DNA of 64,000 bases from assembly GCA_964106645.2 (NCBI GenBank), contig OZ067044.1; one strand, given 5' to 3'. A program made the position numbers. This DNA is from Podarcis pityusensis (taxonomy: Eukaryota). Shown piece after piece: positions 1 through 3,000 of the stretch (position 1 is its first letter; every line of letters starts with the position of its first letter).

Positions 1-3000
1 AAGTCTTGGGTTTCTTGCCACCTGGCAAATCCCGAGGCTGCTCCGCCCCAGAGAGTAGGAGTTTTTGTTCGTATTTGCTTTACTGACATTTGCCTCGCCA
101 CCTGGCTGACATGCCTTCGTGTTCCCGGGTGGATTTTGTGTTATGCCCCAGGGAGGCCTCTCTTGAGTTCCAGCGGGAAAATCTTCAGGACGACTCTTGG
201 ATCAGGATGAGGCAATTGTTGCAGCTTGCAAGATGTGCTTGTAAACATAACGGAGACTTGTGGCACCTTAACGCCTGGCTCTCAATCCTTTTCCTCTAGT
301 CCTCGCTTTCAAGATAAAAATTTGCTCGCGCCACGCCAAATTTGCTAATATATTGCAAAGAAATACATTGGAAAACAAAAAGAAACAACTCTTAGCAATG
401 ATTGATTTGTAACACAGAACACAGCTACTTAATAATATGATCCAGGAAGTATAAAACAATGCAGCTACATAAGAACATGAATATTCCCCAAAAGGGTCTT
501 CTCCAGCACCCGATCGAAAGGCGATTCTGGATCACAACTAGGATTGTCATCAGTATCACTGGATGCTCTTGCTCTCATTTTGAAAGGGTGTCTATCCAGA
601 TTCTGCAAATAATAAAAAAATTCTTTGATTGTCCTTGAATCTTCCCGCCACTCTTGCCATCTTCTCCTGCCCCACACCGGTGTGGCCCAGCCACACCCTT
701 TGAGAGCCCCTGTCTTAACGGCTTGGTGGGTGTAGGACACACTTTGTTTTATTCTGCGGCTCTGCTTAAAACGGAGCGCCTTTGGGGGCCATTAAACGTC
801 TTCTCATTACTTGTGATTGCTTAAATCTGGTAGTCCTTATTAAAATGCGGCTGCATATTAAAGCTGCGTGCGAAAACTCAGGGCTCCGACTGTTGAACCA
901 CGTCTTCTTCTCCGACGCTCCAAGGCTGGCGATGCTCAAGAAGAAACAGGACAAAGAGGACGTATCGCAGCTCAGCTAATGCCCAGCCCGGATGGACCCG
1001 TTTGCCCAGCGCCCAGACTCCAACTGAAGGCGCTTCTGCGATTGACCGTTTGGCTGTGCAGGCACCATGCATTCAAAGGATGCACACGGATATAGGATTC
1101 TTGGTGCTTTAAATATACAGTATAGGGTGTGCGCAGCCTTTGCCTTCATGGAAGGGTGCAAACAGGATCTTCTTTGGGCGAGATTGAGGATGAGCTCTGG
1201 GAGGCTCAGAGTTTCAGTCCTAAAGTCATCTAAGCCCATAGAACTATTCTGGAAGAATATTTCACAGTAGTCGCTTTGAGCATTTGCCTGCCATCTCTTG
1301 GGTAGCTTTGAGTGGTGAGACTTCCTTTACACACACACATGTCCTGCATAGTAAGAAGCATTTTCTTCGCCTGGGCTGTTTCACGCACAACAACGGGTCA
1401 CCGGCAGGCAACACACGGCGCTGGCCACCAGTCCTGGCTGTCCGCCCCAATGAGCGTACCTGCGTGGTATAGGCGTTTCCAGATCCGTTTGTGATATCCA
1501 CGCTATATCTTTAAGCCAAATCCACTTTCAAGAACTTAGCTGCGAAGAGGCCGGTCAGTCAACGGGGTACCAAAAATATCCACCGGCTTCCTCCCGGCAG
1601 GGCTTCTGCGCCTCTCCCACAGTGGTCAACGTGCTGGGCGGCCGGGTGCTGCAGGTGCCTGGTCTGGGCAGGACTCCAGGTAACCGCCGCTGCTAGTCTT
1701 CCTTCTTGTAAACTCGCTTGCAATTCCAGTCCCGCATTGGCTGGTGCTCCTGTGACGTCACGGCAGCCACCCCTATCCTCGGCGCTGAGCTGAAAAGACG
1801 GTTGTCGCCTCCCGCACCAATTTCCTCCGCTTCACCGACAACTCCTGGGAGCTCCTCGCATGTCAAAAGCAAGCTTTCCAATTCCACTTCACGCCTCCGA
1901 ACAAAACGTCCTTCCTGGGGCAGCCTCCCTGGCGGGCATCTGGCAGAAGGCGAGAAGCAGCAGCTGCCCAGAAAGAAGCCCCTTAAACGCGCGGCTGCCA
2001 GCGGCCCCCGACGCCCGCTGCGCCTCCCAGGAAACCTGCGGGCGGCATCTCTTGAGCGCTCGGCAATGGGCAGAAGAGCGGCTGCCAAGGAGGCAAACTG
2101 CGCGTCCGAGATTCGCCGCTGGATTCGGGAGCGCGTCGAGCGGCCGCTGCGCGTTGATTTACGAGTCAACCGCAGGGAATCTGATTTCCAGGAAACCCGC
2201 GGCGTAAGGACTCCTGGGCAAGGAAGGGCGGCCGCGTCTCTCGTGCTGCCGCCTTGCTCCCCGCCGGCCAAGGACGGAGCTACCCTCGAACTGCCCCTCT
2301 GGTAACCTGAAGCCATCTTGTAACTTGGAGCTTTCTCCATGCTCTCTCTTTTATGCCTCTGTGCAGGAAGAGACATGGGTGTCTCCCAAGGAAGACCTTT
2401 GGCACGAATGCAAACAAGTGAACCGCGTACTGCGTACTGGCAACTTGCCGGCAGCCAGCCAAGTGCTTTTTAGGAAAAGGGAAGAGCTGAACATGCCGAA
2501 GAAAAGCATTCATTGCAAACCTTCCGTTTTGCTTCACCTTCTTTCAACGGCAAGATCACCCCTTCAGGTGTCACAGGAAGCTGTTGTCTTTAGCCTTCTT
2601 TCTCTCTTTGGGGGCCCACATTACAGTGGTACCTCGGGTTACAGACGCTTCAGGTTACAGACTCCGCTAACCCAGAAATAGTACCTCGGATTAAGAACTT
2701 TGCTTCAGGATGAGAACAGAAATCGTGCTCCGGCTGCGCGGCGGCAGCGGGAGGCCCCATTAGCTAAAGTGGTGCTTCAGGTTATGAACAGTTTCAGGTT
2801 AAGAACGGACCTCCGGAACGAATTAAGTTCTTAACCTGAGGTACCACTGTACTGCTCTATAGCTAAGGCTTGCTGCTTTCTAAAATTCATCCCTTTTATT
2901 TAATGGCTCTATAAAAGACTCTTACTAAGTCCCACTGACTTTAATAGGGCTTACTTCTATGTAGACATAAACAGGACTGCACTGTAAGTCTGTTCTCCAT

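What the first reader, a model, noticed from the sequence alone, without database searches (positions are those of the whole stretch)
1540..2450. Promoter that outlived its gene: CpG island with CRE, CCAAT and CGCT/CTCF motif in front of the dead alpha-C1
This is the only CpG island in 64 kb and it belongs to the pseudogene, while the five live promoters are CpG-poor. CpGs also persist inside the decayed exon. Retention of CpG implies continued germline hypomethylation. The element may still act as a promoter of a non-coding first exon spliced to the constant exons, as an enhancer decoy, or as a CTCF/cohesin anchor that tunes competition of alternate promoters for the downstream enhancer (HS5-1 in mammals). 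That would be a regulatory function decoupled from coding function.
Basis: partly seen in the sequence, partly recalled or inferred. Interest (0 to 1): 0.75.

Follow-up and report, generated by a model that had tools for sequence, protein, structure and literature searches.

The report
Orphan CpG island in lizard protocadherin-alpha
A genuine, non-repeat CpG island with a perfect cAMP-response element lies downstream of the last visible protocadherin-alpha variable exon of a wall-lizard-like genome, but no dead gene can be found beside it and it lacks the protocadherin promoter signature, so it is best read as an ordinary orphan CpG island.

Summary
The CpG island is real. Positions 1540-2450 have GC 0.615, CpG o/e 0.85 and 73 CpG, against a window o/e of 0.27. 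It is the only CpG-rich stretch in unique sequence, because every other CpG-rich patch is a transposon copy. A perfect CRE (1753-1760) occurs once in 64 kb. CCAAT boxes are present but at chance level.

The headline claim fails. No protocadherin remnant is detectable in 1-19500 with four probe sets: a profile of the five live exons, Pfam on translated frames, 120 database protocadherins, and a named squamate alpha-C2. Positive controls worked. The "CGCT/CTCF motif" is chance: 13 CGCT observed against 13.2 expected. No CTCF-like core and no copy of the promoter element shared by all five live exons is present. Both island ORFs are non-coding.

Germline hypomethylation is a reasonable inference from dinucleotide patterns and decaying neighbouring repeats, but it is unproven. 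Best reading: an orphan CpG-island promoter-like element in the variable-to-constant intron. A live c-type exon just beyond the window's left edge is not excluded.

The parts
1271..2450 (.). Unique-sequence CpG island (main lobe). The finding's 1540-2450 lies inside it, and the densest part is 2001-2300.
   Evidence: GC 0.59, o/e 0.84, 86 CpG. 1540-2450: GC 0.615, o/e 0.85, 73 CpG. No other copy in the window. No flanking long direct or inverted repeats.
621..1170 (.). Second, weaker CpG-rich lobe in unique sequence. The CpG-enriched domain reaches the window's left edge.
   Evidence: GC 0.51, o/e 0.69, 25 CpG. 1-1244 has CpG o/e 0.62 and TpG+CpA 1.16. No self-match in the window.
1753..1760 (.). 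Full palindromic cAMP-response element TGACGTCA, inside a 14-nt imperfect palindrome (1746-1767).
   Evidence: Only occurrence in 64 kb; P about 0.004 in island-composition simulations. Palindrome I15.
1736..1740 (-). CCAAT box (ATTGG on the plus strand), 13 bp from the CRE.
   Evidence: Further CCAAT on the plus strand at 1817 and 1878. Three copies are not above chance (P = 0.10).
1636..1641 (+). GGGCGG (Sp1-type GC box; the name is recalled). Others are at 2040-2045 and 2226-2231.
   Evidence: 3 observed, 1.43 expected, P = 0.17, so not above chance.
1999..2015 (.).
   Evidence: No consensus match at <=2 mismatches. CGCT count at chance. No match to the profile of the shared promoter element.
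2619..2854 (.). Repeat with terminal inverted repeats abutting the island. It inflates the computed island to 2630-2880.
   Evidence: Four other copies at 85-93% identity. 23-nt terminal inverted repeats. It keeps 9 of 12 ancestral CpGs against 21 of 48 in the other copies.
19672..22041 (-). Nearest live alpha variable exon (790 codons, phase-0 donor at 19671), about 17 kb upstream of the island on the cluster strand.
   Evidence: Pfam Cadherin x5, Cadherin_2 and Cadherin_C_2. 98% identical to Podarcis raffonei protocadherin alpha-3-like isoform X2. Donor and phase.
22177..22282 (-). Shared protocadherin promoter element (CSE-like) of that exon. Equivalents are at 29964-30062, 37574-37672, 47439-47512 and 55348-55445. 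This is the signature the island lacks.
   Evidence: nhmmer E from 5.4e-28 to 4.7e-14 at the five promoters. The core lies 189-255 bp upstream of each ATG.

Best explanation
The element is an orphan CpG island: about 1.2 kb of unique, non-coding, TATA-less, CpG-rich DNA, with a weaker lobe to its left. It lies in the long intron between the last visible alternate protocadherin-alpha variable exon and the alpha constant exons of a lacertid-like lizard.

SHOWN. It is real, it is not a repeat within the window, and it does not encode protein. It carries a perfect CRE next to a CCAAT box. It has neither the conserved protocadherin promoter element nor a CTCF-like site. No protocadherin exon, alive or decayed, follows it inside the window.

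INFERRED. Its CpGs survive because the region stays unmethylated in the germ line, which is what CpG-island promoters do. The most likely activity is therefore transcription initiation from a CREB/NF-Y/Sp1-type CpG-island promoter. The product would be an unannotated, probably non-coding transcript, or the element serves as an alternative start inside the alpha transcription unit. Orientation is unresolved.
For: Island metrics. Unique in the window: 9 non-self blastn hits for 1-3200, all within 2618-2983. No insertion signatures.

No deamination footprint: core CpG o/e 0.98 and TpG+CpA 0.93, against background 0.12-0.27 and 1.26-1.29. Neighbouring repeat copies have lost 21-68% of inferred ancestral CpGs, against 2-11% mismatch at other sites.

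The CRE is unique in 64 kb.

Non-coding. Pfam finds 0 families in all six frames of 1-5000 at E <= 1. The minus ORF (258 aa) had 0 of 5692 candidates at E <= 0.01. The plus ORF (197 aa) had one hit in 1.84 billion proteins, E 4e-4 in 8 stretches, to an S/L/T-rich protein. Codon-position GC is flat at 0.63/0.63/0.65 and 0.61/0.60/0.60, against 0.55/0.37/0.49 in a live exon. There is no tRNA, meaningful tandem repeat or Rfam family.

Not a protocadherin promoter. No exon.
Against: No expression, methylation or cross-species data could be consulted, so promoter activity and hypomethylation are inferences. Long et al. 2013 (PMC3583005, passages read) show that computational CpG-island calls in cold-blooded vertebrates are unreliable predictors of non-methylated DNA.

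CCAAT and GC boxes are at chance frequency. The CRE was picked post hoc.

No convincing splice donor follows the island on either strand. The best is 7 of 9 consensus positions at 1459 on the minus strand; plus-strand candidates start only at 2984.

Orientation cues conflict. CpG density peaks at 2001-2300, to the right of the CRE. GC skew at 1801-1900 (-0.43 on the plus strand) favours a minus-strand transcript.

The CpG-rich domain is not closed at the window's left edge, so the island may belong to something outside the window.
Confidence: 0.55

Rival explanations
1. The island is the upstream part of the CpG-rich, constitutively hypomethylated promoter domain of a LIVE c-type exon (alpha-c1 or alpha-c2) that starts just beyond the window's left edge.
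For: The anole has intact alpha-c1 and alpha-c2 downstream of its alternate exons (PMC2764143, sections 5 and 7 read). A Varanus alpha-C2 with the alpha constant tail exists (P0139). Mammalian c-type promoters are hypomethylated, and alpha-c2 has no CTCF site (PMC7811963, passages). CpG enrichment continues to position 1 (1-1244 o/e 0.62). The alpha constant exons are not in the window, so the cluster continues leftward.
Against: In the five live exons the promoter element lies only 189-255 bp from the ATG. The island's dense core would lie more than 1.7 kb upstream of any exon outside the window. No signal-peptide or EC1 coding is seen in 1-1540. P0139 lacks its N-terminal part, so the very start of a c-type exon was poorly probed.
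Confidence: 0.2
2. One reading: a relic promoter of an alpha-C1 exon that has died. The exon would be either decayed beyond recognition or deleted, and the promoter retained for a regulatory role.
For: The position is right: about 17 kb downstream of the last alternate exon, where c-type exons lie in anole and mammals. CpG retention suggests continued hypomethylation.
Against: No remnant was found with any probe. The profile of the five exons had best E 2.2, and tblastn best E 0.075. Pfam found 0 families in the frames scanned. Of 120 database protocadherins, 1 hit at E <= 0.01, and that hit is at 18484-18773, not near the island. The divergent c-type-like parts had best E 0.11 with scattered hits. 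The Varanus alpha-C2 had best E 2.2. DNA-level comparison of 1-3200 found only the repeat. Alpha-c1 promoters carry the CSE/CTCF site in mammals, and the island has none, even though its CpGs, including any CGCT box, should have been protected. A 2.4-kb exon decaying to nothing while its promoter stays pristine requires a deletion, for which there is no positive evidence.
Confidence: 0.1
3. A non-promoter orphan CpG island. It would act as a tethering or boosting element for distal enhancers, or as a Polycomb-bound platform, rather than as a start site.
For: Orphan CpG islands are reported to boost poised enhancers (bioRxiv 10.1101/2020.08.05.237768, title and start of abstract seen in the listing). 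No good splice donor or ORF follows the island.
Against: There is no sequence evidence for an adjacent enhancer. A CRE plus CCAAT arrangement is more typical of promoters (recalled knowledge).
Confidence: 0.1
4. A young insertion or dispersed repeat, for example a copied GC-rich 5' region, that is CpG-rich only because it has not yet had time to decay. It would not be hypomethylated.
For: All other CpG-rich patches in the window are exactly this. Genome-wide copy number could not be checked.
Against: There is no second copy in 64 kb. There are no target-site duplications, terminal inverted repeats, LTR-like repeats or poly(A) at its borders. There are no transposon or reverse-transcriptase domains. 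CpG o/e of 0.98 with TpG+CpA of 0.93 over 550 bp is higher than in any repeat copy here. The repeat copy at its edge keeps more CpGs than its siblings (9 of 12 against 21 of 48, one-sided P = 0.052), which hints at a locally protected state.
Confidence: 0.07

Closest known systems
Orphan (intragenic) CpG islands / non-methylated islands of vertebrates (Long et al. 2013, PMC3583005; orphan-CGI literature seen in the listing)
   Same: Unique CpG-rich DNA away from any recognisable coding start, in a CpG-depleted genome, with promoter-type motifs and no deamination footprint.
   Different: Non-methylation and transcription are not shown here. Lizard non-methylated islands usually have a lower GC content than this one.
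Protocadherin alpha-c2-type promoter (c-type, no CTCF site, constitutively hypomethylated; PMC7811963)
   Same: Lies downstream of the alternate exons, has no CSE or CTCF site, and retains its CpGs, unlike the alternate promoters.
   Different: No variable exon follows it within the window. Orthology was not testable.
Protocadherin alternate and alpha-c1 promoters (CSE with CGCT box, which is a CTCF site; PMC7811963)
   Same: Same locus, and possibly the same strand.
   Different: It lacks the conserved element that all five live promoters in the window share. It has no CTCF-like core, no start codon at about 200 bp, and no exon.
CRE-containing, TATA-less CpG-island promoters bound by CREB/ATF, NF-Y and Sp1 (recalled textbook knowledge, no call)
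   Same: A full palindromic CRE beside an inverted CCAAT box and GC boxes in a CpG island without TATAAA.
   Different: No start site, factor binding or downstream gene is known.

Membership tests
CpG island (Takai-Jones sequence criteria) | At least 500 bp with GC >= 55% and CpG o/e >= 0.65 | tested here: met
   1248-2630: GC 0.573, o/e 0.79, 89 CpG. 1540-2450: GC 0.615, o/e 0.85.
CpG island (Takai-Jones sequence criteria) | Not derived from a repeat | tested here: met
   Within the window only. 1-2617 has no second copy and no insertion signatures. Genome-wide copy number was not testable.
Non-methylated island / orphan CpG island | Experimentally unmethylated DNA in germ line and soma | not testable with these tools
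   Only indirect evidence: CpG 0.98 and TpG+CpA 0.93 in the core against 0.12-0.27 and 1.26-1.29 outside; decaying neighbouring repeats.
Non-methylated island / orphan CpG island | No protein-coding start at the island | tested here: met
   no family, no homologue, no codon periodicity.
Clustered protocadherin promoter with CSE (alternate and alpha-c1 type) | Conserved sequence element at a fixed distance (about 200 bp) upstream of the start codon | tested here: not met
   A profile of the five live promoters gave 23 hits at E <= 100. Five were the promoters themselves, and 0 of the other 18 lie in 1-3000. The 20-mer core at <=3 mismatches matched only 2 sites, both live promoters.
Clustered protocadherin promoter with CSE (alternate and alpha-c1 type) | CTCF-binding core (CGCT box) | tested here: not met
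   0 of 9 consensus matches lie in the island (the consensus was recalled). CGCT is at chance, 13 against 13.2. Actual CTCF binding is not testable.
Clustered protocadherin promoter with CSE (alternate and alpha-c1 type) | Followed by a variable exon (signal peptide, six cadherin repeats, transmembrane segment) | tested here: not met
Protocadherin alpha-c2-type promoter | No CTCF site; CpG retention consistent with hypomethylation | tested here: met
   The hypomethylated state is inferred only.
Protocadherin alpha-c2-type promoter | Drives a c-type variable exon immediately downstream | tested here: not met
   Nothing in 1-1540 on the minus strand. Beyond the window edge this is not testable.
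Protocadherin alpha-C1 pseudogene | Recognisable homology to a protocadherin exon, with disabling mutations | tested here: not met
   Best E values were 2.2, 0.075, 0.11 and 2.2 with four probe sets. Controls reached E <= 3e-88.
CRE-dependent promoter | Full palindromic CRE TGACGTCA | tested here: met
   1753-1760, unique in the window. CREB occupancy and cAMP response are not testable.

The most novel reading that the evidence does not exclude
The island is a lizard-specific, c-type-style (CTCF-independent, constitutively unmethylated, CREB-responsive) promoter inside the protocadherin-alpha transcription unit that no longer has, or never had, a variable exon. It would launch a variable-exon-less transcript that either splices into the alpha constant exons or runs through the intron. 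In doing so it would compete with the CpG-depleted alternate promoters for the distal enhancer and tune them. That would be regulation of isoform choice by an exon-less promoter.
Probability: 0.1. Interest if true: 0.65.

Novelty: new member of a known kind. Interest (0 to 1): 0.3.

Why it matters
If the island is an active start site inside the alpha cluster, it would be a handle on how squamates regulate a protocadherin cluster whose alternate promoters have lost almost all their CpGs. In 4 of the 5 promoters seen here, that includes the CpG of the CGCT box, which mediates methylation-sensitive CTCF binding in mammals. As it stands, it is one more orphan CpG island, and the claim that made it interesting, a promoter that outlived its gene, has no support in the sequence.

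Tried and rejected
1. Dead alpha-C1 exon. I searched with a profile of the five live exons against 869 six-frame pieces of 1-19500, and with lenient tblastn. I ran Pfam on six frames of 1-5000 and three minus frames of 5001-14900, with stops read as X. I ran 120 database protocadherins, six divergent c-type-like parts and the Varanus alpha-C2 P0139. Nothing was found. Pfam was not run on the minus frames of 14901-19500 or on the plus frames beyond 5000; those stretches were covered only.

2. Alpha constant exons in the window: absent (best E 0.71).

3. Coding first exon of another gene: rejected.

4. Structural RNA, tRNA or tandem repeat: none. The only permissive Rfam hit was mir-9847 at 2919-2976, 19.6 bits against a gathering score of 74.

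5. CTCF or CSE site in the island: none.

6. In-frame minus-strand first exon for the constant region. The only phase-0 ATG ORFs end at weak donors (6 of 9 consensus positions) at 2306, 2283 and 1065. I do not consider these credible.

7. The second Takai-Jones island and the other CpG-rich patches are all transposon copies.

8. Literature on PCDHAC1/PCDHAC2 in lizards: the 15 papers listed held neither gene name.

9. Whether lacertids have an intact alpha-c1 stayed open. The last homology search was swamped by long fused models and showed only the Varanus alpha-C2.

10. Two paper-reading runs failed on term format. I read the sections directly instead.
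Full report
CONTEXT. The window has no N and is not human. Its five long minus-strand ORFs (19600-22077, 27417-29891, 34963-37479, 44860-47316, 52767-55271) all carry cadherin repeats, Cadherin_2 and Cadherin_C_2 (5 of 5). The 3' tail of a sixth exon lies at 63881-64000. The exon nearest the finding is 98% identical to Podarcis raffonei 'protocadherin alpha-3-like isoform X2' (P0002). So this is the protocadherin-alpha cluster of a lacertid-like lizard, transcribed right to left. 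The alpha constant exons are not in the window (best E 0.71 for the P0002 tail). The finding therefore lies in the variable-to-constant intron, about 17 kb downstream of the last visible alternate exon. In the anole, intact alpha-c1 and alpha-c2 follow the alternate exons (Jiang et al. 2009, PMC2764143, sections 5 and 7 read), so expecting a c-type exon near here was reasonable.

THE OBSERVATION. The island is real. Positions 1540-2450 have GC 0.615, CpG o/e 0.85 and 73 CpG, and 1751-2250 reaches o/e 0.99. The window as a whole has o/e 0.27. TGACGTCA at 1753-1760 is the only copy in 64 kb (P about 0.004). An inverted CCAAT lies at 1736-1740, but three CCAAT copies (P = 0.10) and three GGGCGG copies (P = 0.17) are unremarkable. 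The live promoters and exons are CpG-poor, with o/e 0.13-0.33.

'The only island' needs a qualifier. A Takai-Jones scan finds a second island at 14656-15336, and a GC-independent scan finds seven CpG-rich segments. All but 621-1170 and 1271-2450 are transposon copies:
- a SINE-like repeat with three copies;
- a 235-bp element with terminal inverted repeats, in five copies, one of which abuts the island at 2619-2854;
- two further inverted-repeat elements at 7053-7395 and 23363-23596.

The 'CGCT/CTCF motif' is not real. CGCT occurs 13 times against 13.2 expected. None of the 9 window matches to the recalled CTCF core consensus at <=2 mismatches is in the island.

IS THERE A DEAD ALPHA-C1? I found none, using the following searches.
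- A profile of the five live exons against 869 six-frame pieces of 1-19500 gave best E 2.2. Lenient tblastn gave best E 0.075.
- Pfam, with stops read as X, found 0 families at E <= 1 in all six frames of 1-5000 and in the three minus frames of 5001-14900.
- Of 120 database protocadherins, only one (P0024) hit 1-19500 at E <= 0.01, and that hit was at 18484-18773, far from the island.
- Because c-type exons are divergent, I also used the parts of fused database models that are 42-45% identical to the live exons (best E 0.11; seven scattered, non-colinear hits).
- I also used a named squamate c-type protein, 'Protocadherin alpha-C2 [Varanus komodoensis]' P0139, identified (best E 2.2).

The same probes hit the live exons at E <= 3e-88 and E <= 8e-159. 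At DNA level, 1-3200 matches nothing in the window except the repeat. No confirmed alpha-c1 orthologue was available as a probe, so an exon eroded beyond all cadherin similarity, or one that was deleted, cannot be excluded. There is no positive evidence for either.

IS IT A PROTOCADHERIN PROMOTER? The five live promoters share a ~100-bp block. Its core lies 189-255 bp upstream of each ATG. In 4 of 5 exons (not the third), a CTCF-like element lies 642-720 bp further downstream inside the exon. That is the CSE-plus-exonic-CTCF-site architecture described for mammalian alternate alpha exons (PMC7811963, passages read). A profile of the block finds the five promoters at E from 5.4e-28 to 4.7e-14 and nothing in 1-3000 at E <= 100. 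By the review's rules, alpha-c1 has a CSE and alpha-c2 has none. So the island fails the alpha-c1 test. It resembles alpha-c2-type promoters only in what it lacks.

WHAT ELSE COULD IT ENCODE? Nothing detectable.
- The 258-aa minus ORF has no homologue: 0 of 5692 candidates.
- The 197-aa plus ORF has one marginal multi-stretch hit to a low-complexity protein among 1.84 billion.
- Both ORFs have flat GC content across codon positions.
- No RNA family, tRNA or meaningful tandem repeat is present.
- No flanking repeats suggest an insertion.

WHY ARE THE CpGs THERE? The core shows no deamination footprint: CpG 0.98 and TpG+CpA 0.93, against 0.12-0.27 and 1.26-1.29 elsewhere. The repeat copies act as reporters. 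They have lost 21-68% of their inferred ancestral CpGs, against 2-11% mismatch at other sites, so the neighbourhood undergoes methylation-type decay. The copy at the island's edge kept 9 of 12 CpGs against 21 of 48 in its four siblings (one-sided P = 0.052, two-sided 0.10), which is suggestive only. Germline hypomethylation is thus the best inference. Long et al. 2013 (PMC3583005, passages read) warn that sequence-based calls are poor predictors of non-methylated DNA in cold-blooded vertebrates.

MECHANISM. I commit to an orphan CpG-island promoter-like element, with a CRE and CCAAT box and no TATA, that starts an unannotated and probably non-coding transcript (confidence 0.55).

Orientation is unresolved. 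CpG density peaks to the right of the CRE, at 2001-2300. GC skew at 1801-1900 favours a leftward transcript. The best donors are weak, and none gives an in-frame coding exon for the constant region except at 6-of-9 donors.

The main rival (0.2) is that the island belongs to a live c-type exon just outside the window, because CpG enrichment continues to position 1.

METHOD NOTE. Exons were searched singly, and the only full-length isoforms used were database proteins as given.

Noticed in passing
window 48681-48990 (minus strand): Full-length 7SK RNA match (217.9 bits, model positions 1-331, E 6.9e-60) between the fourth and fifth variable exons. I saw no TATA-like box about 30 nt upstream and no T-run after its 3' end, so it is probably a 7SK pseudogene or retrocopy.
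   Followed up: partly
window 22177-22282, 29964-30062, 37574-37672, 47439-47512, 55348-55445 (minus strand): The lizard alternate promoters keep the CSE-like element. At the position of the mammalian CGCT box, only the exon nearest the island retains CGCT (GTCGCTAC). Three have GTCACTG, and one is diverged. The methylation-sensitive CpG of the CTCF site seems to be lost in 4 of 5 promoters, which fits their CpG o/e of 0.21-0.28.
   Followed up: partly
window 21574-21588, 29337-29351, 46819-46833, 54666-54680 (minus strand): A CTCF-like element (CCTCTAGAGGGAGCC and variants) lies inside 4 of 5 variable exons, 642-720 bp downstream of the promoter element. This matches the exonic CTCF sites of mammalian alpha alternate exons. 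None was found in the third exon at <=4 mismatches.
   Followed up: partly
window 19600-22077 (minus strand): The last visible alternate exon is 80-88% identical to single proteins of Rhineura, Elgaria, Tiliqua, Anolis and Pogona, but only 70-74% identical to its four neighbours in the window. It looks like a one-to-one orthologue conserved across squamates, which is unusual for alternate exons.
   Followed up: no
window 18484-18773 (minus strand): The C-terminus of a Podarcis muralis database model (P0024, residues 775-837 and 854-869) is encoded here, about 0.9 kb downstream of the last exon's donor. In this window the frame has a stop and a shift. It is probably a read-through annotation artefact and not a real exon.
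   Followed up: partly
window 63881-64000 (minus strand): The 3' end of a sixth variable exon, cut by the window edge (E 2.8e-7 to the tail of the third exon).
   Followed up: no
window 2619-2854, 9911-10145, 12708-12939, 37842-38059, 57569-57793; 7053-7395; 23363-23596: Small elements with terminal inverted repeats. Two families share CAGTGGTACCTCG-like termini. All are CpG-rich. Together with the SINE-like repeat at 8743-9071, 11683-11998 and 14845-15184, they account for every false 'CpG island' in the window.
   Followed up: partly
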